From Escherichia phage phiWec179, in sequence record LC739533.1: 64,000 bases of DNA, one strand, 5' to 3'. A model generated the notes under the pieces. The model saw only the letters and a program-made list of their open reading frames with translations, was not told the DNA's origin and made no database searches. Below are positions 19,050-58,918 of this stretch, one piece after another (within the stretch, counting starts at the first letter, position 1; every line of letters starts with the position of its first letter). Made by a program: the position numbers and the translations under genes.

Positions 19050-19128
19050 GATATTTGGAGGCGGGAATCGGATTCGAACCGATGATCTCCAGCATATGAA
19101 ACTGGCGAGGACGACCAAACTCCTCTAT
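19050..19128 (-). tRNA. tRNA with anticodon CAU (Met or Ile2)
   Basis: Hand-folded: acceptor AGCGGGA/TCCCGCC (1:72 mismatch), anticodon stem CCAGT/GCTGG, loop TTCATAT, T-arm ATCGG-TTCGAAT-CCGAT, encoded CCA. Confidence 0.6.
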
Positions 19129-19134
19129 CCCGCT

Positions 19135-19205
19135 ATTAGGTGTCCCGTGCTGGATTCGAACCAGCATCACAATAAGTTGTGGATCTCTTATCCTGTAAGT
19201 CTAAC
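19135..19205 (-). tRNA. tRNA-like element, non-canonical (no standard anticodon arm found)
   Basis: Perfect T-arm GCTGG-TTCGAAT-CCAGC and near-complementary acceptor strands, but the middle forms a CACAA/TTGTG tetraloop hairpin instead; no encoded CCA. Confidence 0.3.
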
Positions 19206-19206
19206 G

Positions 19207-19280
19207 GGAAACTGGTTGTTTCGACAAGAATCGAACTTGTGTCTCACGATTATCAGTCGTGGGTTCTACCATTGAACTAC
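19207..19280 (-). tRNA. tRNA-Ile (GAU)
   Basis: Acceptor TGTTTCG/CGAAACA, D-arm GTTC-AATGGTA-GAAC, anticodon arm CACGA-CTGATAA-TCGTG, T-arm ACAAG-TTCGATT-CTTGT, encoded ACCA. Confidence 0.75.
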
Positions 19281-19286
19281 GAAACA

Positions 19287-30302: not shown

Positions 30303-31181
30303 ATGTTCGTTAAATCTTTTAAATCTGCACTTCCGATGGTTGCTGGTGATAATGCTTCTGTAGCGTCTCTGAACGAGTTCAACGAATTTCCGATTGACTT
30401 TGTACCTGCTGAAGGATCTCAAGCCCATACTATTGGTCTGGTTCGTTTTGAAGATGACGGGAAATACGTAAAAGAGTTCTCCGATCTGGAACTCCTTCAG
30501 GTTGGTCAATCTGTCAAGAAAGTTGACAAGAAGAAAGTTAAACGTCTTCTTAATGAACGCCTGGAAGAAATTCGAGTAGATATGGAAAGCCAGGGTCAAG
30601 AATTCTTTGTCGCTAAAGAAGACATGAAAGCCCTGAAAGCTGATATTGAATTTGGTCTGCTTCCAGAAACTGAACCAGAAGATTTCTTCAATTATGTAGT
30701 TCTGGATAAAACAACCAACCTGTTCTATGTGATCAACGGCAGTAAGAAAGTAGCGGAAGCTATTACTTCCTTCTTCCGTAATGTTTTAGGGACTTTCCCT
30801 TCTGTAGGCTTTAGTGTTCACGAAGAAGCGATTATCAAAGGTTTTGGTACATTGCTGAAAGAACACGAAGCTGATCGCCTTACTCTTGGCAACTATATTA
30901 AACTGGAAGATAGTGAAGGTGTTGTTGTCTGGACGAAAGAATCTCTTTACGATTCCAAAGCAATCGAACTTAAAGAAGACGGTAAAGATGTTGTCGCTAT
31001 TGGCTTGGAGTACGATGGTGTGCTGGAGTTTGTAGTAGATAAAGAGTTGAAGTTGAGTAAGCTTCGTTTCCCTAAATACTTCAACGATGACGAAGGTTCT
31101 ATTGAAGCATCTACTCTACTTTGCTTCAACGAGATTCGTGGTTTGATGGCAGATCTGACGAAAGCAACTATTCTTAAATAA
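30303..31181 (+). CDS. Hypothetical protein (RdgC-like size and pattern, tentative)
   Basis: 292 aa; weak resemblance to recombination-associated RdgC; not verified. Confidence 0.3.
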   Translation: MFVKSFKSALPMVAGDNASVASLNEFNEFPIDFVPAEGSQAHTIGLVRFEDDGKYVKEFSDLELLQVGQSVKKVDKKKVKRLLNERLEEIRVDMESQGQEFFVAKEDMKALKADIEFGLLPETEPEDFFNYVVLDKTTNLFYVINGSKKVAEAITSFFRNVLGTFPSVGFSVHEEAIIKGFGTLLKEHEADRLTLGNYIKLEDSEGVVVWTKESLYDSKAIELKEDGKDVVAIGLEYDGVLEFVVDKELKLSKLRFPKYFNDDEGSIEASTLLCFNEIRGLMADLTKATILK

Positions 31182-42274: not shown

Positions 42275-42283
42275 GGAGAACTA

Positions 42284-43276
42284 ATGCGCTATCTGGTAAC
42301 AGGTGGTCTTGGTTTTATTGGGAGCGCCGTTGTGCGCTCTCTTTGTCAAGATCCTAATAACGAAGTTTTTGTCATTGATAAAATGGGCTACGCAGCCGAT
42401 ATTGAAAATGTAGGGGATATCACTCACGCCAAACTAAGCATGACGGATTTGGCAAACGAAGCACAGGTCAAAAGTTTGGTGGTAGAATGCAACCCTGATT
42501 TCATTATTCACTTAGCGGCAGAGAGTCATGTGGACAACTCTATCAAAAATCCACGAGCTTTCATCGACTCCAATATCATCGGTACATATAATTTACTGGA
42601 AGCTGCGAGACTACTCCCAAGGAATAAGCTGAAGATGTTTGTACACGTCTCCACAGACGAAGTGTACGGCGATATGGCAGACTCTGGCGCTCCCTTTACC
42701 GAAGAGACAGCATATACTCCTTCAAGCCCGTACAGCGCGTCCAAGGCGGCTTCTGATCATCTTGTGAAAGCTTGGCACCGTACTTATGACTTGCCTGTAG
42801 TGATAACTAATTGCTCCAATAATTTTGGACCTTACCAATACCCTGAAAAATTGATTCCAAAAGTAATCACAAGCATCTTGACGAACAAAGAAATCCCAGT
42901 GTATGGTAAAGGTGATCAGGTACGAGACTGGCTTTTTGTTGAGGACCATGCACGAGCTATTCTTCAGGTAGCTTCTGGCGGCGAACCTGGACAAACTTAC
43001 AACGTAGGTACACGTAATCCTAAAACCAATATGGAGATCATCTATATGATTTGTGATTACATGGATGCCGTACACCCGCAAAGTGGAACCTACCCCTCTT
43101 CAAGTTTAATAACTTTTGTTGAAGATCGTAAAGGACATGACTTGCATTATGAAATCAACCCTGCTAAGATTGAATCTGAACTGGGTTGGAGTGCAAACTC
43201 CACATTTGAACAAGACCTTTACTCTACGATAGAGTGGTATTTAAACAACCCTCAATGGTGGAGAGAAAAGATTTAA
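42284..43276 (+). CDS. rmlB: dTDP-glucose 4,6-dehydratase
   Basis: TGGLGFIGS Rossmann motif, [10 protein letters not shown] (YxxxK) catalytic motif. Confidence 0.85.
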
Positions 43277-43284
43277 GGAGGGTT

Positions 43285-44163
43285 ATGAAAGGTATTATTT
43301 TGGCTGGAGGAAGTGGAACCCGCCTACATCCAGTAACACGCAGTGTGAGCAAGCAATTGCTCCCTGTGTATGACAAACCTATGATTTATTATCCTTTATC
43401 AGTCTTGATGTTGGCAGATATTAAGGATATCTTAATCATCACAACCCCAGGCGATCAGGAAGATTTTGAGTATCTTCTTGGAGATGGATCTATGTTTGGG
43501 ATAAAGATCACTTACGCAATGCAGTCTGAACCACGAGGTCTTGCAGATGCTTTCATCATTGGTAAAGATTTCATTGGGGAAGATTCTGTTGCCCTTATTT
43601 TAGGGGATAACTTGTTCTTCGGACAAAGTTTCGGAAAACTTCTTATCCAAGCCAGCGAAATGGTGGATGTTTGGGGTGGAGCTTGTATCTTCGGGTATCT
43701 GGTGAAAGATCCTGAACGATTCGGTGTTGTTGAGTTTGGAAGTAATCGCCAAGCTATCTCTATTGAAGAGAAACCGGAACATCCTAAATCAGACTATGCT
43801 GTCACGGGTTTGTATTTCTATGACAACTCTGTTGTTCAACGTGCATTGGAAGTAACCCCTTCCGAGCGTGGAGAACTGGAGATCACAGATATCAATCGCA
43901 GCTACCTCGAAGACAGGAAGTTACAAGTTGAAGTTCTTGGAAGAGGATTCACTTGGTTGGATACAGGGACACACGCCAGTCTAATGGAAGCAGGTCAATT
44001 CGTGCAGACTATTGAGAACTGCCAAGGATTGAAGATTGCGTGCCTGGAAGAGATCGCTTTCAAAAAAGGGTGGATTTCTTTAGAGACTTTGGTGTATCAT
44101 GGCAACTCATTGAAGAAAACAGAGTACGGGCAATATTTGTTAAAATTAGCGGAGGGTAAATGA
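43285..44163 (+). CDS. rmlA: Glucose-1-phosphate thymidylyltransferase
   Basis: [17 protein letters not shown] signature; start set to ATG 43285 after RBS AAGGAGGG. Confidence 0.85.
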
Positions 44164-44720
44164 AAATAAAAGAATTAAGTATTCCTGGTCTGGTTGTCTT
44201 TAAACCTCAAGTTTACAAAGATGATCGTGGTTACTTCACGGAGACGTTTAACGAGAAGATTTACGAAGAGGTTATTGGCAAACAAACGTTTGTTCAGGAT
44301 AACCATTCATTCTCTACTTTAGGTGTTCTTCGCGGAATGCACTTTCAAGTAAACAATCCGCAAGGTAAGCTTGTACGTTGCACACGAGGTGAAGTTTTTG
44401 ACGTGGCTGTAGATCTTCGTGAAGGTAGTCCAACCTTCGGACAATGGGAAGGTGTGATTCTTAGTGGGCGTAACAATAAACAGTTTTGGATTCCACCTGG
44501 CTTTGCACATGGTTTTGTTGTAACCTCTTATGAAGCCAACTTTGAATACAAGTGCACCAACTACTACGATCCGGCATCTGAACGTAGTTTGTTGTGGAAC
44601 GATCCTACTGTGAATATTGATTGGGGTTTTGATATGATTTTCAATGATGAGAATTTTGTACCTATCATTTCGGAAAAGGATGCACAAGCTAAAACACTGA
44701 AGGAGCTTATGGAATCATGA
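44160..44720 (+). CDS. rmlC: dTDP-4-dehydrorhamnose 3,5-epimerase
   Basis: Cupin-type RmlC pattern ([11 protein letters not shown] ... GMHFQ ... [10 protein letters not shown]). Confidence 0.85.
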
Positions 44721-45559
44721 AAACATATTTAGTATTGGGTGGTAATGGTCAATTAGGTCAGGCACTGCGTAAAGTGGTGCCGGAGAATGTGACTTTGGTG
44801 TATCCAGAAAAGCGTGTAGATATCACCAGTTTCGAAGCTGTAAGAAAAGCGATCATGGACACCCCAAATATTAACGGTGTTATCAACTGTGCGGCATACA
44901 CTGCGGTGGACAAAGCAGAGACAGATGTTGATGCAGCTATGGCTGTAAATTTACACGGGGCAGCTAATATTGCTGCCTTCTGTAAGGCTTGGGATATTGA
45001 CATGGTGCATATTTCTACTGACTATGTGTTCAACAGCGATAAACCGTTGTTCCATCAGGATGAACCCAACCCTATCAATGTTTACGGGTTATCTAAAAGT
45101 TTGGGTGAAGCTGCTGTTCGTGGTATCTACCATAAAGCTTTTATTATCCGCACGGCTTCTGTGTATAGCGAGTTTGGTAACAACTTCCTGAAGACTATGG
45201 TGTCTCGTTACAACGATGGTCAAAGAGACTTCTCGGTAGTTGCAGATCAAACATCTCGACCAACTTATGCCCCAGATTTGGCTAAGATGATTTTCCAAGT
45301 GTTGGAAACAGGATATAACACCCGTACTTTGCATTACGCTGGGAACATCACTGTTTCGTGGCACCAGTTCGCAAAAATGATATTGACACGTATGCCTGAA
45401 TCTGTTATTATACACCCGACCTCTGCTGCAACCTATAATTCGGCAGCGATGCGACCAGCAAAGTCTATACTAATTACGTCTGGTTGGAACGAACCTTCAA
45501 GCGTCGGACAAGGTATTGAAGAATCTTTAGCAGTATTACTTAATAAGGAGAGAGCATGA
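44717..45559 (+). CDS. rmlD: dTDP-4-dehydrorhamnose reductase
   Basis: LVLGGNGQLG Rossmann motif; ATGA-coupled to rmlC. Confidence 0.8.
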   Translation: MKTYLVLGGNGQLGQALRKVVPENVTLVYPEKRVDITSFEAVRKAIMDTPNINGVINCAAYTAVDKAETDVDAAMAVNLHGAANIAAFCKAWDIDMVHISTDYVFNSDKPLFHQDEPNPINVYGLSKSLGEAAVRGIYHKAFIIRTASVYSEFGNNFLKTMVSRYNDGQRDFSVVADQTSRPTYAPDLAKMIFQVLETGYNTRTLHYAGNITVSWHQFAKMILTRMPESVIIHPTSAATYNSAAMRPAKSILITSGWNEPSSVGQGIEESLAVLLNKERA

Positions 45560-45816
45560 ATTTTGTAATTTACGGCAAACCAAATTGCCAGTTCTGTGAA
45601 ATGTCCAAACAACTCTTAACTATGCGTGAAAAAGAGTTTGAATATCTGACATTAGATCAGGACTATGATTTTGAAGTGATGACTCAAGCAGTGATCGCAG
45701 CAACAGGAATTGCACCTCGCACCTTCCCGCAGATTTTTGTGGAAGAGCTTGGAGCAGTAACCCACGTAGGCGGTTTTACCGAACTGCGTGATTTCATGGC
45801 TCAAATTGCGGAGTAA
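45556..45816 (+). CDS. Glutaredoxin / NrdH-like redoxin
   Basis: 86 aa with N-terminal C-Q-F-C active-site motif. Confidence 0.6.
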   Translation: MNFVIYGKPNCQFCEMSKQLLTMREKEFEYLTLDQDYDFEVMTQAVIAATGIAPRTFPQIFVEELGAVTHVGGFTELRDFMAQIAE

Positions 45817-48504: not shown

Positions 48505-48527
48505 CTGCCCCTTCGGGGGCATTTCTT
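48505..48527 (+). terminator. Rho-independent terminator
   Basis: GCCCC-TTCG-GGGGC followed by ATTTCTT. Confidence 0.45.
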
Positions 48528-49989: not shown

Positions 49990-50181
49990 ATGCAGGAGAA
50001 TGAAGAGATAGTTGTTAAAAAGTTCCCGACACGTACACAGGCAGTCAACTTTGCCTCTGATTTGCTTTTGGATGTGGAAGGAGTTCTCATTAGACATGAA
50101 GGGGATTCCTGGAATGTCTCTTATAATGTAAACAGATCAATTATATATTTAGGAGAAGAGAACTTCTCTCGTATAGAGTGA
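49990..50181 (+). CDS. Hypothetical protein
   Basis: 63 aa; RBS AAGGAGG. Confidence 0.4.
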   Translation: MQENEEIVVKKFPTRTQAVNFASDLLLDVEGVLIRHEGDSWNVSYNVNRSIIYLGEENFSRIE

Positions 50182-50195
50182 TCGAAGGAGCAATT

Positions 50196-50768
50196 ATGCG
50201 TTCTACTTACACAGGTAAGATTAATTCTGGTATCATTTTAGCAGCAGCAGGAATCATCAGCAAAACTTTCAAAGTGGCAAACCTACCAGAGTGTGTAGAT
50301 TTTGACCACGTATTCAATCCATTAAATCCTTCTCGTTGTGTTGTTCGTAGCAACGTTGAGAATCCAAATGAGAACTTGTTTTATGTAACATCACCTTCAC
50401 AAAGTATTCTAAACCAAGTGGAGGCTAAAATTATTACCGAAGGTAGTTATTTCTCATTGCTACCTTGTAAATCGGTGGAGATTGAAGATAGTATCACCTT
50501 CGCAAATAACTTGGTCTTGACCATGTTCATGGTTTCTGATAAAGACTGTGGAGACGATATGGTTTTAGCTGTAAGGAATGTTTATGACACATTGGGTATT
50601 GCTTATAGCTGTAAGTTGTGCGATGATTATAAATCTTGTTCAGACTTTTACATAAATGGTGTTCGGGTATGCCGTGTTGAATCCTACTGGGTGCAAGACA
50701 CATACATAACAGTAGCGAACGTGATCAATGAACCTATGTTCAGCCACGCTTTAGCGTTAATCATTTGA
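50196..50768 (+). CDS. Hypothetical Cys-containing protein
   Basis: Start moved to ATG 50196 after RBS AAGGAG. Confidence 0.4.
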   Translation: MRSTYTGKINSGIILAAAGIISKTFKVANLPECVDFDHVFNPLNPSRCVVRSNVENPNENLFYVTSPSQSILNQVEAKIITEGSYFSLLPCKSVEIEDSITFANNLVLTMFMVSDKDCGDDMVLAVRNVYDTLGIAYSCKLCDDYKSCSDFYINGVRVCRVESYWVQDTYITVANVINEPMFSHALALII

Positions 50769-50778
50769 GGAGGAAGGA

Positions 50779-51108
50779 ATGGAAATTACTACAGAACAGG
50801 CTCTTATCGACGAAGGGCGTAAAATCTTAGAGAAGCATTTGGGAGATATACATCAAACCCCTGGCTACTTAGGGTGGCGCATGGTTGAAGCTGTAGATTT
50901 CCTTCCTCGTACAAAACAAGACGTTGAAATGCGTTCTCTGTTCTTGCTTGTCAAAGTAGACGGGGATACGCCTTTCAAACTCGCAGCTTCACACATTGAG
51001 AAGGTGGAGGAGAAAGCTTATTCAGAGTTTGCCGAACTCGTATTACAGGAGGATCTCGAAGGGAAGGTAAACATTTTTATTTTTCTGGATTTTGAGGAGG
51101 AGATATGA
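50779..51108 (+). CDS. Hypothetical protein
   Basis: 109 aa; RBS GAGGAGG. Confidence 0.45.
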   Translation: MEITTEQALIDEGRKILEKHLGDIHQTPGYLGWRMVEAVDFLPRTKQDVEMRSLFLLVKVDGDTPFKLAASHIEKVEEKAYSEFAELVLQEDLEGKVNIFIFLDFEEEI

Positions 51109-51842
51109 TTTTATATAAAGAGATTACCGTGGAGCAGGATCAAGACCTCTTCATCATCGGGGACTTACATGGTTGCTACGATCTTTACTTGAAAGGTAAG
51201 AATTATCTTGGTATCCGAGATACAGATGTGGTTGTGTCTCTCGGAGATTTGACAGATCGCGGTAAACAAAACTTCAAATGTGTTGTGGAATTTACACGCA
51301 AAGAGAATCGTTATGCGCTTTGTGGTAATCACGAAGATATGATGATTAAAGGCTTACTGGAAGGGGATCGTCGTTACTACGAATGTTGGTATCAGAACGG
51401 TGGTCATACAGTGTTGGCAGAATGTGATGAAGAAGGCTCTACATTACTTGCTACGATGGTCGAGGACAACCCTGTGGTTTTGGTTGTGAATTACCGAGGT
51501 ATGAAGTTAGGGTTTATTCATGGCGGATATCCTTCCTCTTTTGAATATATTCCGCTGACAGACATACCGCACCTACGTATGAACAAAGCAAGAGAGGCTA
51601 CTTTTGCTGAAGCTTTGATGTGGGATCGTGACATGGTGGAGTGTGCTAAAGAAGGTATGAAACTTCCGGTTGTTATGGGTGTTGATTATGTGTTTCACGG
51701 GCACTCTTATGTGAAAGAACCTTTGATCAATGCTAATCGTGTTTATATGGACACTGGGTCTGTTTTCAATAACAACTTAACGTTTGCCTATTTTGATGCA
51801 GACGGTGGACTTCAGTTTTATTCAACTTTACAGGAGGATTAA
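51105..51842 (+). CDS. PPP-family Ser/Thr protein phosphatase (lambda PPase-like)
   Basis: GDLHG, GDLTDRG, GNHE motifs in canonical order. Confidence 0.7.
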   Translation: MILYKEITVEQDQDLFIIGDLHGCYDLYLKGKNYLGIRDTDVVVSLGDLTDRGKQNFKCVVEFTRKENRYALCGNHEDMMIKGLLEGDRRYYECWYQNGGHTVLAECDEEGSTLLATMVEDNPVVLVVNYRGMKLGFIHGGYPSSFEYIPLTDIPHLRMNKAREATFAEALMWDRDMVECAKEGMKLPVVMGVDYVFHGHSYVKEPLINANRVYMDTGSVFNNNLTFAYFDADGGLQFYSTLQED

Positions 51843-52135
51843 TGTATAAAATTACAATCGTAGAATCTGTGGGTGAGATTCGTAAAGAAATTATTCTGGA
51901 GACGGAAGATCTGGAACTGGTACGTGAAATCATAATTGGTAAGAATGTAGACAAGGTGGAGTCGGACGCACCCAACCTGATGATCGATGACCAATATGCA
52001 GAATTTCGTCGTATTTTTGAGGAAGAAAGGAAGAAGTGGGGCAAAGAACCAAACGTTTTTCGTCCTTATAATCCGTATCCTTCTGGTGATCCGTGGATCA
52101 TGACTAACAGAAACCCGTTTGAAATAACCTGTTGA
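51842..52135 (+). CDS. Hypothetical protein
   Basis: 97 aa; ATG overlaps upstream stop. Confidence 0.4.
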   Translation: MYKITIVESVGEIRKEIILETEDLELVREIIIGKNVDKVESDAPNLMIDDQYAEFRRIFEEERKKWGKEPNVFRPYNPYPSGDPWIMTNRNPFEITC

Positions 52136-52143
52136 GGTGGCCT

Positions 52144-52722
52144 ATGAGCAACCTATTTTACACAGGCGTGGGAAGTCGAGAGATAACCCACGAAGAATGG
52201 GATTTAATGGTCGCTGTAGCAAAGTGGTTGGCTAACTGTGGTTTTACTTTACGTTCAGGTAATGCAAACGGTAGTGACTCTGCTTTCGAAACAGGTGTGG
52301 AAGAATCCAAAAACAAATCTCTCAAGGAGATTTATATCCCTTGGGAGAAGTTTGAAGGCAATGATATTCCAGGTGAGAAAATAGTTCTTGCTAAACCTGA
52401 CAGTATGAACTATGCTATCAGTCTCCAGTGGATAAAGGATATTCATCCGGCATTTGATAAATTGAAACAAGGTGCACGTAAATTGCATCAACGTAACGTT
52501 CATCAGGTGTTGGGACAAGATCTGGAGCATCCAATTCCTTCTTTGTTTTTACTGGCTTGTTCCAAAGAAGATAAGAAGGGAGACGTTATGGGTGGAACAC
52601 GGACGGCGTGGCTCATCGCTAAAGCTAATAACGTTCCATGTTTTAACTTACGTGGTAAAACAAAGGAAGAACTTTATGCTTTTCTTAAACCGTTGGTCAA
52701 GGGGGCAATCAGTGGCAATTAA
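52144..52722 (+). CDS. SLOG / DprA(Smf)-like Rossmann-fold protein
   Basis: GVGSR ... LRSGNANGSDSAFETG ... HQRN ... GGTRTAWLIAKANNVPCF matches DprA/SLOG pattern; start set to ATG 52144. Confidence 0.45.
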   Translation: MSNLFYTGVGSREITHEEWDLMVAVAKWLANCGFTLRSGNANGSDSAFETGVEESKNKSLKEIYIPWEKFEGNDIPGEKIVLAKPDSMNYAISLQWIKDIHPAFDKLKQGARKLHQRNVHQVLGQDLEHPIPSLFLLACSKEDKKGDVMGGTRTAWLIAKANNVPCFNLRGKTKEELYAFLKPLVKGAISGN

Positions 52723-53236
52723 GTTAAATCGTGCAAACGTAGGTAATCGTTTTAACCTTAGCCGTATAAACGAGGACGTAGATGTTACAGCAGATATTGA
52801 AAAAATCATGCAGGGTATTGTCCATCACGGTTTGCGTTTTGCCAGGGATTTGGTAATCTTCCGTTATGACGGAGAAGATGATCGTTCAAAGAATGATGGG
52901 ATTATCTTCGTAGATAAAGATTTAACCCAAGCAGATATTGAACAGATCAACCGTTATTTTATTGGTGTAGGGGATCTTCAAGACACGCAGCTTGCACGTA
53001 TGGCAGAAATTCTGGCGAATAAATTGTTGCAAGATATCGGAAAAGTTCTTGACAAAAATCCAAAACATGTTATAGTGACTATCCACAAAATGAGTTTTAT
53101 TAAGTATCTTAACAAACCTGGTAAACTGGGTTATGGATGGATACGCACAAGTGGACCACAAACCACTCTCGAAACCGAGATGTGCTATACAATTGAAGAA
53201 GTAAAACGTGAGGAGGAAGAGAATGGCGGAATTTAA
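52676..53236 (+). CDS. Hypothetical protein
   Basis: Long listed ORF trimmed to first start with RBS (ATG 52676; GTG 52712 alternative). Confidence 0.35.
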   Translation: MLFLNRWSRGQSVAIKLNRANVGNRFNLSRINEDVDVTADIEKIMQGIVHHGLRFARDLVIFRYDGEDDRSKNDGIIFVDKDLTQADIEQINRYFIGVGDLQDTQLARMAEILANKLLQDIGKVLDKNPKHVIVTIHKMSFIKYLNKPGKLGYGWIRTSGPQTTLETEMCYTIEEVKREEEENGGI

Positions 53237-53513
53237 TGAAGTGAAAAGTTACGAAAGCAATTTCGTAAGCAATTGGGAAGCATGGGATGAGATGGGTGTT
53301 GGTGAACTCTATTTCTACAATGTAACCCTTCGTCCAGAATATCAACATCTCATTCCAGAAGGCACTGTGCAGATCGGTATGTTCATGTCTTCTCAAGACG
53401 GTGTTGTGCAGTTTGAGTTTTACTCTGACACAGAACAGAACGAATTCACTTATCGTGCATTCAATATCGTATTAGCTTTAGGAGAGGAGAAATTTTATGA
53501 CGACGAAGTATAA
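53223..53513 (+). CDS. Hypothetical protein
   Basis: Start set to ATG 53223 after RBS GAGGAGGAAG. Confidence 0.4.
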   Translation: MAEFNEVKSYESNFVSNWEAWDEMGVGELYFYNVTLRPEYQHLIPEGTVQIGMFMSSQDGVVQFEFYSDTEQNEFTYRAFNIVLALGEEKFYDDEV

Positions 53514-53694
53514 AACAGTAGCAGAAGCACTGAAAGCAGCACACGAAGCCATTGCAGAAGCTGAACAATTGGCTGATGAAACTGGCACAAGTTTTCACTT
53601 CTCTGTTGAATATGGGATGGGTGGTACTTATGACCCAGAAGATGAGAACGAATACACTGGGACCAACTGGCACCCATCTTCCCTCGGTTGTTAA
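53497..53694 (+). CDS. Small Cys-terminated protein, paralogue 1
   Basis: N-terminal alanine-rich helix, Gly/Tyr/acidic core, C-terminal W-x-P-SS-x-x-C. Confidence 0.45.
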   Translation: MTTKYKTVAEALKAAHEAIAEAEQLADETGTSFHFSVEYGMGGTYDPEDENEYTGTNWHPSSLGC

Positions 53695-53708
53695 TAAGGA
53701 GAAATAAA

Positions 53709-53927
53709 ATGAGTGATCGTAATGCACAAGCATTAGCAGACAAAGCAAAAGAAATCATGAAGCTTGTGGATGCACTGGCAGCAGAAGCAGAAAAGGAAGG
53801 TTTCGGTCTTAGCTTAGAAAACAATACAATCTGTTTTGAAGATTGGCAGTCTTCTGCTTGCTATGGCGAAGCTGATGATGGTTTCACCGTTGACTCTGAC
53901 GGTGTTTGGTATAGCAGTAATTGTTAA
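53709..53927 (+). CDS. Small Cys-terminated protein, paralogue 2
   Basis: Same architecture as 53497-53694; ends ...VWYSSNC. Confidence 0.45.
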   Translation: MSDRNAQALADKAKEIMKLVDALAAEAEKEGFGLSLENNTICFEDWQSSACYGEADDGFTVDSDGVWYSSNC

Positions 53928-53936
53928 GGAGGGATC

Positions 53937-54206
53937 ATGTCAGAAGGTAGTGCCTTAATCAAGGCAAAAGTTAAAGAGATGGAAGAATCACAACAGAAGT
54001 TCCGCAACGAGATTGAAGAGCTTTGTGAGCAGTTCCAAGAACAAGCGTGGATCGGTGATTACGGGAATGGGGAAACTTACTACCCAACAGGAACAAACGC
54101 AGAAGAACATTATCTCACCTATATCTGCGGAGACTATGATATTGAGATTGACGAAAACGGTCTGATGACCGAAGGTCTTTGGGTGTCTTCCTCGGAAATG
54201 TGCTAA
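53937..54206 (+). CDS. Small Cys-terminated protein, paralogue 3
   Basis: Same architecture; ends ...LWVSSSEMC; followed by strong terminator. Confidence 0.45.
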   Translation: MSEGSALIKAKVKEMEESQQKFRNEIEELCEQFQEQAWIGDYGNGETYYPTGTNAEEHYLTYICGDYDIEIDENGLMTEGLWVSSSEMC

Positions 54207-54214
54207 TAAATAAT

Positions 54215-54238
54215 AACCCGCTTCGGCGGGTTTTTTAT
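54215..54238 (+). terminator. Rho-independent terminator
   Basis: CCCGC-TTCG-GCGGG followed by TTTTTTATT. Confidence 0.7.
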
Positions 54239-54247
54239 TGTGTGAGT

Positions 54248-54276
54248 GTTGACAAGACACGAAGAACCTGGTAGAC
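54248..54276 (+). promoter_or_regulatory. Sigma70-like promoter
   Basis: TTGACA -35, 17-nt spacer, TAGACT -10. Confidence 0.5.
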
Positions 54277-54305
54277 TTGTCTCATCAACTAAGAGAGGAG
54301 GATAT

Positions 54306-55244
54306 ATGAAAGTATTAATCGGTAGTCGTGCGTTGGAAATGATTTGTCGTTCTCGTGGTGTAGAACTGTATCGTGCTTGCGTAGATCTGGATTACCTCTG
54401 CACTGAAGAAGAGTGGCAAGCAGAAGCCCAGAAATTCTCGAAAGATCGTTTCGTAGAAATTGTTGAACGTAAAGGTAACAAAGGGCATATCAAAATGATC
54501 GCGGGCGCTCATCTGGAATATGATATTGCACAACCAGGCGACTCTACAGATGCTTTGATTCAATACATCAAAGAGAATGCAGATCATCTGCCGCGTATTG
54601 GTTATGATGTGGTCGCGCCTTTGGATGTTTTATACCTTCTGAAGATGAGTCACCGTTTTAAGAAGGACAGTCCTCACTTCCTGAAAACAATGAAGGATAT
54701 CCACTTCATGCGTAACCTTGGAGCGAAGATCCCTGAAGAGTTGGAAGATACATACAAACTGCGTCAGAAGGAGTCCTATAATTACGGGCACCCTAATCTG
54801 AACGTGAAAAGTAAAGATTTCTTCAAGGGTGATGAAGTGCCTTATGTGTATGATCACGATAGCCTGCACAGAGTTTTAGCTGTAATGGAGGAACCAGCTT
54901 ACACGAACTACCTAAAGGATGGTAACGAGGTAATGACAAGTAAAGATAAGTTCTATGCTGTTGACGAAACTACCAGATTGCTTGGGGTGTTAGAGGAGAG
55001 TTTGGTTCTGGCTTCGGAAAGGTGTCTAATACCTTTCAACTACAGTGTTACAGGGAAGAAGGCATTTCTTATGGCTTTGACTAAAGTTTGCACTTCTATC
55101 ACATCGGGCTACTTTCGAGAATATGCTTATGAAAAGTTCTTCCTTGTGTGTAAGGTATACGATAATATGTATCCTAACGACGAGTGGGTGGATACGTTAA
55201 GACAAGCCATAGATAAGGGGGCTGTTGATGTATATAAAGCATAA
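54306..55244 (+). CDS. Hypothetical protein, possible nucleotidyltransferase fold
   Basis: N-terminal LIGSRALEM ... CVDLDYL loosely resembles the GS...DxD signature of Pol-beta-type nucleotidyltransferases; weak. Confidence 0.3.
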   Translation: MKVLIGSRALEMICRSRGVELYRACVDLDYLCTEEEWQAEAQKFSKDRFVEIVERKGNKGHIKMIAGAHLEYDIAQPGDSTDALIQYIKENADHLPRIGYDVVAPLDVLYLLKMSHRFKKDSPHFLKTMKDIHFMRNLGAKIPEELEDTYKLRQKESYNYGHPNLNVKSKDFFKGDEVPYVYDHDSLHRVLAVMEEPAYTNYLKDGNEVMTSKDKFYAVDETTRLLGVLEESLVLASERCLIPFNYSVTGKKAFLMALTKVCTSITSGYFREYAYEKFFLVCKVYDNMYPNDEWVDTLRQAIDKGAVDVYKA

Positions 55245-57580: not shown

Positions 57581-57597
57581 TGCCAGCATCTGAACAA

Positions 57598-57625
57598 AGC
57601 CTCCTGCTTCAGGGGGCTTTTCTTT
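57598..57625 (+). terminator. Rho-independent terminator
   Basis: AGCCTCC-TGCTTCA-GGGGGCT followed by TTTCTTTT. Confidence 0.55.
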
Positions 57626-57638
57626 TATGGGAGGAAAT

Positions 57639-58133
57639 ATGTTTCAAGTAGAAATTCATGTGCACAACAGTTGTTCAAATTGCGAAACTTGTGGTTACAA
57701 TAGTTCAACCATGATCACTGTTAGCGGAGACTTAGGACATGCCAAGTTTGGCGAAGTCGCAAGCTGCTTCAGCGGAGAGGATGCAGATTGGCATGATATT
57801 GCTTTGTGGCTATGCGGAAGACTGAATGTAAATTGTAAAGACTTCCCTGAACTGTTGAGCCGAAATCTTATTGATAGTCGGGAACAAGCCTACAATATTT
57901 ATGCCGCTTCTGTTTATGTTGATCATAAATGGGTAGAAGATGAAGAAGCTGAACGTTTGCTGCGCCTCTACTACGAAGCAGAGGAAGCTTATGATAACTA
58001 TTATAGCATGTCCAACATTCTACGCTTGTTTGCAGAGTTTGATATTTACTTTGAAGTGAGTTATTCTGAAGAGGAAGTGTATGATTTTGATGACGATGAT
58101 TACGAGGAGGATGAAGAATGCCAAGACGATTAA
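57639..58133 (+). CDS. Hypothetical Cys-containing acidic protein
   Basis: Start set to ATG 57639 after RBS GGGAGGAAA; C-terminal poly-acidic tail. Confidence 0.4.
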   Translation: MFQVEIHVHNSCSNCETCGYNSSTMITVSGDLGHAKFGEVASCFSGEDADWHDIALWLCGRLNVNCKDFPELLSRNLIDSREQAYNIYAASVYVDHKWVEDEEAERLLRLYYEAEEAYDNYYSMSNILRLFAEFDIYFEVSYSEEEVYDFDDDDYEEDEECQDD

Positions 58134-58918
58134 TAGTGATCAGCGGTGCTGGTCTAAGCGCCGATAGCGGTGTACGTACTTTCCGCACTGATACAGATAG
58201 CGGGAAAGCTTTGTGGGATGAATACGACCTTTCTGAAGTGTGCGATATTTTCAATTTCCGTGCTGGCTACCAGCAAGAACAATGTGTTCCTGGCGCTGCT
58301 GGTGGATTAGATGCAGAGGGATACAACCTCTACCGTAAAACTCACGACTTCTACAATAAACGTCGCGTAGAGATGGATAGTGTGTCTCCTAACGCTGCGC
58401 ATTACCAGATCGCAGAGTGGTTCCAAGAGTACGGCTGCGATCGTGTTATCAACATCACAACAAACGTAGATGATCTTCTGGAACAAGCAGGGGTTGTTCA
58501 TGAAGATGTTCTGCATGTTCACGGCTTCCTGCCTGAAGTGATTGTAGACAATAGAATCATCAAGGATGTTGGTTATGCTGCTATTGATGTAGATGATTAC
58601 AAGTATGTGAAGCCCAATGTAGTGTTCTTTGGGGAGACTGCCCCACTGTATAACGATATGTACCACATCTTAGACGGCTTGACGGCTCAAGATATGGTGG
58701 TTGTAGTGGGCTGCTCTAATCAAGTGATCAACTTCAACTGGGATTTGTTCCCAGCCCTCAACATAGGAACAAAGATGGTCGTAGTTAATCCTGGGGTTAA
58801 TTACGAAGAAACACTTCTCTATGAAGATCGTGGAGTTTTTGTTTACCGAGAAAAAGCTGCAACAGCCTTCAGTAATGAAGGTTTCATTAAAATGATCGAA
58901 GACCACTTAAACAAATAA
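58118..58918 (+). CDS. Sir2-family (sirtuin-like) NAD-dependent protein
   Basis: ISGAGLSADSGVRTFR, VLHVHG, VVFFGE; no obvious Zn-binding Cys tetrad. Confidence 0.6.
   Translation: MPRRLIVISGAGLSADSGVRTFRTDTDSGKALWDEYDLSEVCDIFNFRAGYQQEQCVPGAAGGLDAEGYNLYRKTHDFYNKRRVEMDSVSPNAAHYQIAEWFQEYGCDRVINITTNVDDLLEQAGVVHEDVLHVHGFLPEVIVDNRIIKDVGYAAIDVDDYKYVKPNVVFFGETAPLYNDMYHILDGLTAQDMVVVVGCSNQVINFNWDLFPALNIGTKMVVVNPGVNYEETLLYEDRGVFVYREKAATAFSNEGFIKMIEDHLNK

What the first reader, a model, noticed from the sequence alone, without database searches (positions are those of the whole stretch)
52144..52722. SLOG / DprA-like nucleotide-binding protein in the phage early region
GxGSR ... SGxAxGxDxAxxxG ... HxRN ... 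GGTRTA motifs match the DprA/Smf Rossmann (SLOG) fold. This fold binds ssDNA in DprA and nucleotide-derived ligands in conflict systems. Its position downstream of a Ser/Thr phosphatase and in the same block as Sir2 suggests either a recombination mediator or a nucleotide-signal binder or degrader.
Basis: partly seen in the sequence, partly recalled or inferred. Interest (0 to 1): 0.45.

Follow-up and report, generated by a model that had tools for sequence, protein, structure and literature searches.

The report
Phage stand-alone DprA-like SLOG protein
This is a real gene for a small nucleotide- or single-stranded-DNA-binding protein of a common but untested phage family, and related phages repeatedly fuse it to, or place it beside, enzymes that handle ADP-ribose, so it more likely helps the phage resist NAD-based host defences than acts as a classical recombination helper.

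Summary

The window is E. coli phage phiWec181/186 (Phapecoctavirus). Homologues occur in 1428 of 50,697 phage records. About 5000 cluster representatives match in a 1.8-billion-protein library.

Among SLOG families it is nearest DprA. Both DprA ssDNA-binding signature motifs are present, and the LOG catalytic PGGxGTxxE motif is absent. It fails the curated DprA thresholds and has no SAM or winged-helix domain.

Family context points to ADP-ribose. The same domain is fused to NADAR, to a TARG1/DarG-like Macro domain, to DUF4326 and to MazG. It lies at or near the NARP1 NAD+-rebuilding operon in five lineages. phiWec181 encodes NADAR, Macro and DUF4326 elsewhere.

- **Best reading (about 0.45):** the base/nucleotide-recognition part of an ADP-ribose counter-defence kit.
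- **Main rival (about 0.2):** a RecA or recombinase mediator.

No member of the family has been tested. The nearest tested phage SLOG, DruSM1 ORF83 (anti-Avs type III), belongs to another family (YAcAr). This is a new member of a known kind.

The parts
52144..52722 (+). CDS of the 192-aa stand-alone SLOG (DprA-like) protein, PHROG 768
   Evidence: ORF. PHROG 768 E 2.7e-62 over residues 2-183. AF2 pLDDT 96. SLOG fold matches. 100% identical to phiWec181/186.
52134..52140 (+). Shine-Dalgarno-like GAGGTGG, 3 nt before ATG 52144. It supports this start rather than the TTG at 52132.
   Evidence: Read directly from the sequence. PsgM04F annotates the equivalent 579-nt CDS.
52165..52179 (+). Motif 1, G8-V-G-S-R12. 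This is the loop after strand 1 and equals the DprA 'G-S/T/A-R' motif (HpDprA Arg52 gate).
   Evidence: G10 and R12 invariant, S11 nearly so. Motif definition and mutagenesis in PMC3950713.
52255..52296 (+). Motif 2, S38-G-x-A-x-G-x-D45-x-A-F48-x-x-G51, after strand 2. It aligns to DprA 'SGlArGiD'.
   Evidence: S38, G39, A41, D45 and F48 invariant. This is the only stretch aligned by the Pfam DprA, PDB DprA, PADLOC ShosA/PsyrA and hhalign comparisons.
52483..52506 (+). Motif 3, L114-H-Q-R117-N118-V-H-Q121, in helix 109-123. It equals the DprA 'F/L/Y-x-x-R-N/D' motif (HpDprA Phe140/Arg143/Asn144, which orient a flipped-out base).
   Evidence: H115, R117, N118 and Q121 invariant, L114 at 90% or more. 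PMC3950713.
52591..52608 (+). Motif 4, G150-G-T-R-T-A155, at the N-terminus of helix 152-161. It is DprA-like ('SGSlxTA') and lacks the Glu of the LOG PGGxGTxxE motif.
   Evidence: G150, G151, T152, T154 and A155 invariant. E. coli Smf sequence for comparison. No Lysine_decarbox/LOG Pfam hit in 58 members.
51105..51842 (+). Upstream co-directional gene: Metallophos Ser/Thr phosphatase (NinI-like). It is a recurrent neighbour of the family.
   Evidence: Pfam PF00149, 45 bits. It is a neighbour in 6 of 42 lineages.
51842..52135 (+). Immediately upstream small gene (97 aa, PHROG 15301, unknown). Its stop abuts the SLOG ribosome-binding site.
52676..53236 (+). Downstream gene (186 aa, PHROG 8569, unknown). 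Its ATG 52676 overlaps the SLOG 3' end by 47 nt, so the two are tightly packed and probably co-transcribed.
   Evidence: Sequence, PsgM04F annotation, PHROG hit, no Pfam hit.
48506..48521 (+). Terminator-like hairpin marking the probable upstream end of the co-directional block that contains the gene.
   Evidence: Consensus scan only.
54215..54232 (+). Strong bidirectional terminator-like hairpin marking the probable downstream end of the block. It separates the block from the Sir2 region.
   Evidence: Consensus scan only.

Best explanation
The gene encodes a single-domain SLOG-fold protein of the phage family PHROG 768. Its conserved pocket is built like the DprA/ShosA pocket that grips one flipped-out base and the adjoining phosphate. 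It has an arginine 'gate' (R12), a stacking residue (L114), a base-orienting R117/N118 pair and a glycine-rich GGT loop.

I think it is the base/nucleotide-recognition member of the phage's ADP-ribose clean-up kit. Made early with other host-takeover genes, it would bind ssDNA or ADP-ribose-bearing nucleotides. These could be free NAD+ breakdown products or ADP-ribose placed on ssDNA bases by DarT-type toxins. The phage's NADAR, Macro and DUF4326 enzymes would then remove or recycle them. In other phages the NARP1 NAD+-rebuilding pair would take part.

Shown: the fold, the motifs, the fusions and the neighbourhoods. Inferred: the ligand, the cooperation with those enzymes and the anti-defence outcome.

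Whether the protein itself cuts a glycosidic bond is open, because it lacks the catalytic Glu of LOG enzymes. I put about 0.25 on an ssDNA-directed role and about 0.2 on a soluble ADP-ribose-derivative role. The remainder falls to the rival explanations listed separately.
For: **Fold and pocket.**
- pLDDT 96 model.
- Both DprA ssDNA-binding signature motifs are invariant. Two of the three Arg residues needed by ShosA/DprA are conserved.

**Fusions of the same domain** (160-190 bits to the family profile; 37-44% identical to this protein, the same range as stand-alone homologues):
- SLOG + Macro-fold domain + DUF4326. 88 of 120 hits carry the SLOG and 55 of those 88 carry DUF4326.
- The middle domain models as a Macro fold closest to DarG/TARG1 with ADP-ribose.
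- A search with the SLOG profile alone finds NADAR-SLOG, DUF4326-SLOG, SLOG-MazG, and polyvalent giants with NADAR.

**Neighbourhoods.**
- Adps+Namat (NARP1) lies at or near the gene in L019, L029, L040, L047 and L085, with different gene orders. NARP1 function.
- A Macro - DUF4326 - NADAR::SLOG run occurs in L092.
- DUF7831 or Macro genes lie next to it in further lineages.

**Same genome.** phiWec181 encodes NADAR (117 bits), DUF4326 (76 bits) and Macro (23 bits) elsewhere.

**Literature.**
- Phage NADAR (T4 gp30.3, AdfN) is a proven anti-DarTG1 DNA ADP-ribosylglycohydrolase. Phage antitoxin mimics and DarG2-like proteins countering DarTG are reported in abstracts listed.
- Iyer et al. 2022 predicted that viral SLOGs sense or process ADP-ribose derivatives.

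**Against a core recombination role.** T4-like phages, which (from my own knowledge) carry the UvsX/UvsY recombination pair, hold this gene among head genes (inh, hoc, gene 24) rather than replication or recombination genes.
Against: - No member of PHROG 768 has been tested; I found none in the searchable literature.
- In this phage the gene is not adjacent to NADAR, Macro or DUF4326. They lie tens of kb away, outside the window. This phage has no NARP1 in the roughly 92% of a 96%-identical relative that I searched.
- NARP1 proximity was seen in only 5-6 of 42 lineages. It could reflect general clustering of auxiliary or anti-defence genes.
- The most frequent neighbours are ordinary nucleotide-metabolism genes: PhoH, dCMP deaminase and RNR.
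- The LOG catalytic Glu is absent, so a hydrolase role lacks a known mechanism.
- The closest characterised relatives (DprA, ShosA) bind ssDNA and RecA, not ADP-ribose.
- The fusion set is biased by its query.
Confidence: 0.45

Rival explanations
1. It is a minimal DprA. It would bind phage ssDNA and load host RecA or a phage recombinase, or act as an auxiliary ssDNA-binding protein in replication or recombination. Iyer et al. 2021 suggested this for jumbo-phage DprA/Smf copies.
For: - DprA is the nearest family by sequence: 49 of 58 members give weak PF02481 hits.
- HpDprA is the top Foldseek hit.
- Both ssDNA-binding signature motifs are present.
- The PHROG label says DprA-like, and the literature has made the suggestion.
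- In Vibrio phage Chester the gene sits among replication genes: ligase, primase and helicase.
Against: - It fails the curated DprA thresholds: 16.9 vs 29.6 bits, and 13.5 vs 191 bits.
- Only the first 40-50 residues align to DprA.
- It has no SAM or winged-helix domain, and none of the N-terminal extension of the DprA domain.
- T4-like carriers (which, from my own knowledge, already have the UvsX/UvsY pair) keep it among head genes rather than replication genes.
- The recurrent fusion partners are ADP-ribose enzymes, not recombinases.
Confidence: 0.2
2. It is a decoy receptor or hydrolase for NAD+-derived immune signals such as 2'/3'cADPR. It would act like a free-standing ThsA SLOG domain, blunting Thoeris-type signalling or converting the cyclic products to ADPR for NARP1. 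This overlaps the soluble-ligand branch of the best explanation, taken here as the sole function.
For: - NARP1 lies at or near the gene in several lineages.
- Iyer et al. 2022 make exactly this prediction.
- The many invariant polar residues suit a specific small-molecule site.
Against: - ThsA SLOG is a more distant match than DprA, Moco carrier protein or LOG.
- No catalytic acid sits in the LOG position.
- Per the sponge review's abstract (listed), the known phage sponges are Tad1, Tad2 and Acb2; that these have unrelated folds is from my own knowledge.
- Nothing here identifies the ligand.
Confidence: 0.12
3. It is a LOG/PpnN-like nucleotide phosphoribohydrolase. It would split a nucleoside monophosphate (or ADPR) into base plus ribose-5-phosphate, feeding phage nucleotide or NAD+ synthesis.
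For: - H115-x-R117 resembles the LOG 'MHxRK' helix (from my own knowledge of LOG sequences).
- Frequent neighbours are nucleotide-metabolism genes and Prs-like or PRTase-like genes.
- A different phage SLOG (ORF83) was predicted to be an AMP phosphoribohydrolase.
Against: - The defining LOG motif PGGxGTxxE, with its catalytic Glu, is absent; the sequence reads GGTRTAW.
- None of 58 members hits the LOG Pfam model.
- The 'Prs/NAMPT' neighbours are the ADPR-using NARP1 enzymes, not PRPP enzymes.
Confidence: 0.08
4. It is an antitoxin mimic. It would replace the DprA-like antitoxins ShosA or PsyrA when host antitoxin is lost, silencing the ShosTA or PsyrTA abortive-infection systems.
For: - The only PADLOC matches are PsyrA (44 of 58 members, best 2.6e-8) and ShosA (38 of 58, best 1.1e-6).
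- The ShosA structure is a fold match.
- ShosA antitoxin activity depends on the same two Arg residues that are conserved here.
- Phages are known to carry orphan antitoxin mimics.
Against: - The matches are weak and cover only about 40 residues.
- The protein lacks the SAM domain and the C-terminal helix that ShosA needs for stability and dimerisation.
- The family is far more widespread (2.8% of phage records) than such a narrow target would suggest.
Confidence: 0.07

Closest known systems
PHROG 768 ('DprA-like DNA recombination-mediator protein'), stand-alone phage SLOG proteins
   Same: Full-length HMM match, E 2.7e-62. Members have the same length, the same motifs and a single-domain architecture. 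The family is present in 1428 phage records infecting Proteobacteria.
   Different: Nothing differs; this is the family it belongs to. The family name is an annotation transferred from DprA, not a tested function.
Bacterial DprA/Smf (PF02481, TIGR00732; HpDprA 4LJK/4LJR, SpDprA 3UQZ)
   Different: It scores far below the curated thresholds. It has no SAM domain, no C-terminal winged helix and no N-terminal extension of the DprA domain. It carries a family-specific insert (residues ~66-108, with invariant or near-invariant P66, W67, H101, P102). Dimerisation and RecA contacts are unknown.
ShosA and PsyrA, DprA-like antitoxins of anti-phage TA systems (8ZVA)
   Same: DprA-type fold. Two of the three ssDNA-binding arginines are conserved. 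These are the only PADLOC hits.
   Different: The similarity is weak and partial. There is no SAM domain, no alpha-14 dimer helix and no adjacent toxin gene. The protein is phage-encoded.
Viral SLOG domains of the NAD+/ADP-ribose network (Iyer, Burroughs, Anantharaman, Aravind 2022)
   Same: Large-phage distribution. Fusions and neighbourhoods with Macro, NADAR and DUF4326, exactly as described there.
   Different: [quoted passage not shown] By Pfam votes and motifs this family is DprA-like. Its function is predicted there, not tested.
DruSM1 ORF83 (PP596835.1 56640-57032), the only phage SLOG with a reported anti-defence phenotype (anti-Avs/AVAST type III)
   Same: A stand-alone phage SLOG protein with G-x-R, xGxAxGxD, x-R-N and GG-x-GT motifs in the same order.
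   Different: It belongs to a different family: Pfam YAcAr PF10686, 66.7 bits, and PHROG 289. It scores only 12.6 bits against this family's profile. It is 130 aa and keeps an acidic residue (D114) at the LOG catalytic position.
ThsA SLOG domain (Thoeris type I; 7UXS) and LOG/PpnN phosphoribohydrolases (5WQ3, 9US2)
   Different: There is no SIR2 partner. The LOG PGGxGTxxE motif is missing. No member gives a Pfam hit to the LOG family.

Membership tests
SLOG superfamily (Pfam clan CL0349) | Three-layer alpha/beta Rossmannoid fold with a parallel 5-stranded core sheet | tested here: met
SLOG superfamily (Pfam clan CL0349) | Gly-rich nucleotide-contact loop after strand 1, and a GG(T/S) loop at the N-terminus of the helix after strand 4 | tested here: met
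   G8-x-G10-S-R12 follows strand 4-10. G150-G-T152 starts helix 152-161. All are invariant in 58 sequences.
PHROG 768 | Full-length match to the family HMM | tested here: met
   E 2.7e-62, 210.7 bits, residues 2-183 on profile positions 2-181 of 191.
DprA/Smf (PF02481, TIGR00732) | Score above the curated family threshold | tested here: not met
   PF02481: 16.9 bits vs gathering score 29.6, covering residues 9-50 only. TIGR00732: 13.5 vs 191 bits. The best E-value among 58 members is 2.9e-6.
DprA/Smf (PF02481, TIGR00732) | ssDNA-binding signature motifs 'G-S/T/A-R' and 'F/L/Y-x-x-R-N/D' (Wang et al. 2014) | tested here: met
   G10-S11-R12 and L114-H-Q-R117-N118 are invariant or nearly so. Motif definition in PMC3950713.
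DprA/Smf (PF02481, TIGR00732) | Usual accessory domains (N-terminal SAM, C-terminal winged helix/DML1) | tested here: not met
   The protein is 192 aa, all of it in one domain. Some bacterial DprA proteins are also single-domain, so this is not decisive.
DprA/Smf (PF02481, TIGR00732) | Homodimer that binds ssDNA and interacts with RecA | not testable with these tools
   This needs biochemistry or multimer modelling. Only single-chain prediction was available.
LOG / PpnN phosphoribohydrolases (PF03641) | PGGxGTxxE motif with catalytic Glu, and a family HMM match | tested here: not met
   The sequence reads M-G-G-T-R-T-A-W-L with no acidic residue. None of 58 members hits PF03641 at E<=1.
YAcAr / YspA-like SLOG (PF10686; includes DruSM1 ORF83) | Family HMM match | tested here: not met
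   Only 2 of 58 members give weak hits, best E 0.068. ORF83 scores 66.7 bits to PF10686 but 12.6 bits to this family's profile.
ShosA / PsyrA antitoxins | PADLOC HMM match over the protein, plus an adjacent toxin gene (ShosT PRTase or PsyrT RecQ-like helicase) | tested here: not met
   ShosA E 0.0057 and PsyrA E 0.01, covering residues 9-55 only. The neighbours are a phosphatase and unknown small genes.
ThsA-type signal-sensing SLOG | SLOG fused to a SIR2 (or other) effector, and a 3'cADPR-selective pocket | tested here: inconclusive
Viral ADP-ribose-processing module (SLOG with Macro / NADAR / DUF4326; Iyer et al. 2022) | The same SLOG family is fused or adjacent to Macro, NADAR or DUF4326, and those genes co-occur in the same genome | tested here: met
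   Fusions. Gene run in L092. phiWec181 encodes NADAR, DUF4326 and Macro. In this phage they are dispersed, not adjacent.

The most novel reading that the evidence does not exclude
The stand-alone DprA-like SLOG is itself a new kind of anti-defence enzyme: a glycohydrolase that uses the DprA base-pocket. One option is that it removes ADP-ribose from bases of phage ssDNA (DarT-type damage). The other is that it opens cADPR-isomer products of TIR/SIR2 defences to ADPR, which NARP1 then rebuilds into NAD+. Either way, a protein long annotated as a recombination mediator in about 3% of phage genomes would be a counter-defence enzyme.
Probability: 0.18. Interest if true: 0.7.

Novelty: new member of a known kind. 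Interest (0 to 1): 0.38.

Why it matters
PHROG 768 is common. It occurs in 2.8% of sequenced phage genomes and about 5000 cluster representatives match it in a 1.8-billion-protein library. Annotation pipelines label it 'DprA-like recombination mediator', yet no member has been tested.

Suppose the ADP-ribose link seen here is functional: the fusions to NADAR, DarG/TARG1-like Macro and DUF4326, and the position at or near NARP1. Then the label is misleading. The family would add a widespread component to phage counter-measures against NAD+-based immunity (DarTG, Thoeris, SIR2 systems). That is relevant to predicting phage host range and to therapy phages of E. coli, Klebsiella, Pseudomonas and Acinetobacter.

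For this window in itself the finding is ordinary: a correctly recognised member of a known family.

Tried and rejected
- **PDB sequence searches.** The single-sequence search gave no hits. The profile search gave only weak N-terminal DprA matches, E 0.05-0.17.
- **hhalign of the family profile against single sequences.** Comparisons with E. coli Smf and ORF83 gave probabilities of 12% and 10%. This is uninformative for placing the family.
- **Is it the published anti-Avs SLOG (DruSM1 ORF83)?** No. I located ORF83 through residue numbering (R89, N90, T112, D114) in PP596835.1. It is a YAcAr protein of PHROG 289. Phage 9g, examined first, has no homologue.
- **Sir2 as functional context.** Rejected. 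It lies behind terminator-like hairpins and is a neighbour only in this phage's own lineage.
- **Charge and pI as a test for DNA binding.** Not discriminating. The family median pI is 8.4 but 21 of 58 members are acidic, and E. coli Smf itself has pI 5.9.
- **Apparent second SLOG flanking NARP1 in L040.** This was a single-linkage clustering artefact. The 157-aa protein is DUF4326.
- **Fusions seen in IMG/VR loci.** L079 (SLOG + DNA polymerase) contains ambiguous residues and may be an assembly artefact. L059 (SLOG + GroES-like tail) is unconfirmed. Neither was used as evidence.
- **Context of the NADAR-SLOG fusion P0260.** The contig was too short.
- **Mapping ThsA 3'cADPR-contact residues from a paper.** The paper read dealt with Macro-type ThsA instead.
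- **NARP1 or a DarG-like (A3-type) Macro in this phage.** None was found in the window plus 139.5 kb of the 96%-identical PsgM04F. A different Macro, NADAR and DUF4326 were then found.
Full report
**Where the window comes from.** Bases 50000-55000 are 100% identical to Escherichia phages phiWec181 and phiWec186. These are 154.5-kb Phapecoctavirus myoviruses (Stephanstirmvirinae) from pig-farm sewage in Japan. The same stretch is 96.5% identical to 'Pseudomonas phage' PsgM04F, which carries a PHROG-based annotation that I used as a guide.

- An ORF runs from ATG 52144 to the stop at 52720-52722 and encodes 192 aa.
- A GAGGTGG Shine-Dalgarno-like sequence (52134-52140) lies 3 nt upstream of the ATG. 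The stop of the preceding 97-aa gene abuts it. The next gene starts at ATG 52676, inside the 3' end, so they overlap by 47 nt.
- In an alignment of 58 homologues down to 37% identity, 19 columns are invariant, and they are these motif residues.
- The protein matches PHROG 768, 'DprA-like DNA recombination-mediator protein', end to end at E 2.7e-62.
- An AlphaFold2 model built on that alignment is very confident (pLDDT 96.2, pTM 0.92) and shows alternating strands and helices.
- Foldseek against the PDB puts H. pylori DprA first (E 4.5e-6), then ShosA, Moco carrier protein, ThsA and LOG.

**How common it is.**
- tblastn finds a homologue in 1428 of 50,697 phage records. All the leading host genera are Proteobacteria: Klebsiella, Pseudomonas, Escherichia, Vibrio, Aeromonas and Acinetobacter.
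- Carriers include Pakpunavirus, T5-like Vibrio phages, RB49/JSE-type and other T4-like phages, and jumbo phages.
- A profile search of 1.84 billion cluster representatives finds 6207 proteins at E<=1e-3 and 5047 at E<=1e-10. Most are single-domain proteins of 160-200 aa.
- Within Phapecoctavirus and its relatives the gene is conserved: 66 of 70 related records cover the region, and the protein is about 72% identical in the nearest genus-level relatives.

**Where it sits inside the SLOG superfamily.**
- Sequence evidence puts it nearest DprA, but outside the curated family.
- The Pfam DprA model scores 16.9 bits against a gathering score of 29.6, and only over residues 9-50. TIGR00732 scores 13.5 against 191.
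- Across the 58 members, 49 give weak DprA hits, 18 hit LDcluster4, 2 hit YAcAr and none hits LOG.
- Wang et al. (2014) defined two signature motifs for the ssDNA-binding DprA domain, 'G-S/T/A-R' and 'F/L/Y-x-x-R-N/D'. In HpDprA, Arg52 gates a small pocket and Phe140, Arg143 and Asn144 position one flipped-out thymine.
- Both motifs are present and essentially invariant here (G10-S11-R12; L114-x-x-R117-N118).
- The ShosA study shows that the same two arginines are needed for ssDNA binding and for antitoxin activity.
- The LOG hallmark PGGxGTxxE, which carries the catalytic glutamate, is absent. The equivalent stretch reads GGTRTAW, like the SGSLVTA of E. coli Smf.
- The protein lacks the SAM and winged-helix domains and the N-terminal extension of the DprA domain. 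It carries its own insert (about residues 66-108) with near-invariant P66, W67, H101 and P102.
- The only PADLOC matches are the DprA-like antitoxins PsyrA and ShosA. They are weak and partial.

**What is already published.**
- Iyer et al. (2021) noted DprA/Smf copies in jumbo phages and suggested an extra ssDNA-binding protein.
- Iyer et al. (2022) surveyed viral SLOG domains. They found them in 31%, 19% and 7% of jumbo, medium and small phages respectively. They noted fusions to Macro, NADAR and DUF4326, and predicted that these domains sense or degrade ADP-ribose derivatives made by host immunity.
- The only phage SLOG with a phenotype that I could find is ORF83 of phage DruSM1. Its deletion lowers plating on AVAST type III hosts, and the EVADES preprint predicts it to be an AMP phosphoribohydrolase.
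- I located ORF83 in PP596835.1 (56640-57032) by its quoted residue numbers. It is a 130-aa YAcAr protein (PF10686, 66.7 bits; PHROG 289) and scores only 12.6 bits against this family's profile.
- ORF83 is therefore a cousin in the same superfamily, not a member of this family. Its phenotype cannot be transferred.
- I found no experimental work on PHROG 768 itself.

**Gene neighbourhoods.** I collected 80 IMG/VR loci plus the window. I called and clustered their ORFs and grouped the loci into 42 lineages by shared gene content.
- Recurrent neighbours are mostly auxiliary nucleotide-metabolism genes. These include dCMP deaminase (8 lineages), PhoH (7), a ClpP-like protease (7) and RNR (5). DUF7390 appears in 9 lineages and the Ser/Thr phosphatase seen here in 6.
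- The informative neighbours are a 'Prs-like' plus 'NAMPT-like' pair, found in 6 lineages. Osterman et al. showed that this phage operon is NARP1. Adps pyrophosphorylates ADP-ribose, and Namat joins the product to nicotinamide to rebuild NAD+ after NADase defences act. NARP1 occurs in 4.3% of phages.
- The SLOG gene lies at or near NARP1 in five lineages, with different gene orders:
  - L085: SLOG-Adps-Namat.
  - L040: SLOG-Adps-Namat-x-DUF4326.
  - L019: Namat-x-SLOG.
  - L029 (Pakpunavirus): Adps-x-Namat-x-Macro-x-SLOG. An annotated Pakpunavirus record shows the same run.
  - L047: Namat-x-Macro, followed by four other genes, then SLOG.
- A rough chance expectation for NARP1 within 8 kb is about 0.25 of 42 lineages. 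This is my own estimate from 4.3% prevalence and 16 kb of a roughly 120-kb genome. Clustering of auxiliary genes weakens the contrast.
- A small DUF7831 gene lies next to, or 2.5-3 kb from, the SLOG gene in three further lineages.

**Domain fusions.**
- One IMG/VR locus (L066) encodes a 452-aa protein made of this SLOG domain, a middle domain (PHROG 2072, 'A1S_2505 family') and DUF4326.
- Searching with that protein returned 661 relatives. Of the 120 listed, 88 carry a full-length copy of this family's SLOG domain (160-190 bits), placed at the N-terminus, the middle or the C-terminus. Of those 88, 55 carry DUF4326, 2 NADAR and 1 a dNMP kinase.
- I modelled the middle domain (pLDDT 90). It is a Macro fold. 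Its best PDB matches are an uncharacterised Bacteroides protein, the DarTG macrodomain with ADP-ribose, TARG1 with ADP-ribose, and DarG.
- The middle domain has an invariant lysine in an 'IPTK' motif and a 'GCGLAG' motif. From my own memory of the TARG1 sequence, these resemble its catalytic 'ITK84' and 'GCGLD125'.
- The unbiased profile search also returned multi-domain members:
  - NADAR-SLOG (P0260, P0331); in P0331 the NADAR part also touches the T4 gp30.3 model.
  - DUF4326-SLOG (P0256).
  - SLOG-MazG (P0307).
  - Two polyvalent proteins of about 1480 aa that combine this SLOG, a YAcAr SLOG, an LDcluster4 SLOG and NADAR.
- P0331 sits in a run Macro - DUF4326 - NADAR::SLOG. One giant protein sits beside RadC, a HigB/HTH pair and a large helicase, which is typical of mobile-element anti-defence cargo.
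- The fused SLOG domains are 37-44% identical to the window protein. This is the same range as stand-alone homologues from other phage genera (median 42%), so they belong to one family.

**The phage itself.**
- The window holds none of these partners.
- phiWec181 encodes all three elsewhere: NADAR (52592-53119, 117 bits), DUF4326 (63815-64183, 76 bits) and a Macro protein (73662-74144, 23 bits, just above threshold). The Macro gene lies next to a ComF-like PRTase, a HAD hydrolase and TerC.
- I found no NARP1 in the window or in 139.5 kb of PsgM04F.
- The gene sits in a co-directional block bracketed by terminator-like hairpins at 48506-48521 and 54215-54232. Sir2 (58118-58918) lies beyond the second hairpin and beyond another at 57596-57620. 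It is a neighbour only within this lineage.

**How it most likely works.**
- Shown: a SLOG fold; a DprA-type base-and-phosphate pocket under strong constraint; and repeated physical and genomic coupling of this domain to ADP-ribose-handling enzymes.
- Established elsewhere: phage NADAR (T4 gp30.3, AdfN) removes ADP-ribose from DNA and defeats DarTG1. Abstracts listed report phage antitoxin mimics and DarG2-like proteins that counter DarTG. NARP1 recycles ADP-ribose to NAD+.
- Inferred: the stand-alone protein recognises a base or nucleotide that carries ADP-ribose or derives from it. This could be on ssDNA, where DarT toxins act and where a DprA-type domain would be at home. It could also be a free NAD+ breakdown product or signal. 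The protein would work with the phage's NADAR, Macro and DUF4326 proteins as part of early counter-defence.
- Whether it is a binder or a glycohydrolase is open, because the LOG catalytic Glu is missing while D45, H101 and H115 are invariant.
- I give the ADP-ribose-linked reading about 0.45, split about 0.25 ssDNA-directed and 0.2 soluble ligand.
- The rivals are a classical DprA-like mediator (about 0.2), a pure signal decoy or hydrolase (0.12), a LOG-like metabolic enzyme (0.08) and an antitoxin mimic (0.07).

**Verdict.** The gene is a new member of a known, widely annotated but experimentally untested phage family. Better context from related loci favours the 'nucleotide-derived ligand' side of its hedge and adds a concrete, testable link to ADP-ribose counter-defence. 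Interest is moderate. A specialist would not be surprised, since the Aravind group predicted as much. The family's size, its probably misleading label and the NARP1/NADAR/Macro coupling still make it a reasonable target for a deletion-and-challenge experiment.

Noticed in passing
window 53497-54206 (+): Three tandem small genes (65, 72-79 and 89 aa) are paralogues. Each has an N-terminal helix-like Lys/Glu/Ala-rich stretch, a G-x-T-Y/F core and a shared C-terminal W-x-S-S-x(0-2)-C end. They are 33-42% identical to the first copy. Function is unknown.
   Followed up: partly
window 19056-21113 (-): A cluster of 10 tRNA genes: Met x2, Ile, Pro, Gln, Gly, Thr, Tyr, Ser and Arg. It lies between the structural module and the small-gene block.
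   Followed up: partly
window about 42280-45560 (+), by transfer from PsgM04F annotation (L001 1285-4560): A run of nucleotide-sugar genes: two epimerase/dehydratase-like genes and a dTDP-4-dehydrorhamnose 3,5-epimerase. The related phage also has four glycosyltransferases elsewhere. This may mean sugar modification of DNA or of the host surface.
   Followed up: no
window 50178-50768 (+): This gene is labelled 'histidyl tRNA synthetase' through PHROG 4806 (E 1.3e-47) but has no Pfam match at all. A second PHROG 4806-labelled gene exists elsewhere in PsgM04F (30306-30869). The label looks like a propagated misannotation.
   Followed up: partly
window 54246-55244 (+): A large conserved gene (DUF7277 + DUF7275; PHROG 2141) starts right after the strong terminator. 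A promoter-like site (TTGACA-17-TAGACT) lies at 54249-54277. Function is unknown.
   Followed up: no
phiWec181 record LC739534.1 72176-75435 (L094 20177-23436), outside the window: A gene run of HAD hydrolase, ComF-like PRTase (PF15610, 141 bits), Macro domain protein, a small ORF and TerC. It resembles the Ter/PRTase nucleotide-metabolite systems discussed by the Aravind group. NADAR (52592-53119) and DUF4326 (63815-64183) are also in this genome.
   Followed up: partly
L001/L002/L089/L090 (OR584014.1, 'Pseudomonas phage PsgM04F'): This record is deposited as a Pseudomonas coronafaciens phage. It is 96.5% identical over the tested 5 kb to E. coli Phapecoctavirus phages, so the host label may deserve checking.
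   Followed up: no
L040 (IMG/VR 3300045988_048813) and L092 (Logan SRR12487045): In L040 the SLOG gene and a DUF4326 gene flank the NARP1 pair (SLOG-Adps-Namat-x-DUF4326). L092 has Macro, DUF4326 and a NADAR::SLOG fusion in a row. These are compact versions of the module that is dispersed in phiWec181.
   Followed up: partly
P0241 / P0242; L093 6001-10428: These are giant proteins of about 1480 aa. They combine three different SLOG families (this one, YAcAr and LDcluster4) with a C-terminal NADAR. P0241 is encoded next to RadC, a HigB-like toxin/HTH pair and a large helicase. It is probably a polyvalent anti-defence protein of a mobile element.
   Followed up: partly
L087 46007-46399 (PP596835.1 56640-57032, phage Dru_SM1): The published anti-AVAST-III 'ORF83' carries the PHROG 289 label 'GTP-binding domain' in its GenBank record. 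It is in fact a YAcAr SLOG protein (PF10686). The paper's ORF numbers are offset from the record's locus tags.
   Followed up: yes
L079 1481-3391 and L059 8001-8789: Apparent fusions of this SLOG domain to a DNA polymerase (the ORF contains ambiguous residues) and to a GroES-like tail. These could be real read-through architectures or assembly and ORF-calling artefacts.
   Followed up: no
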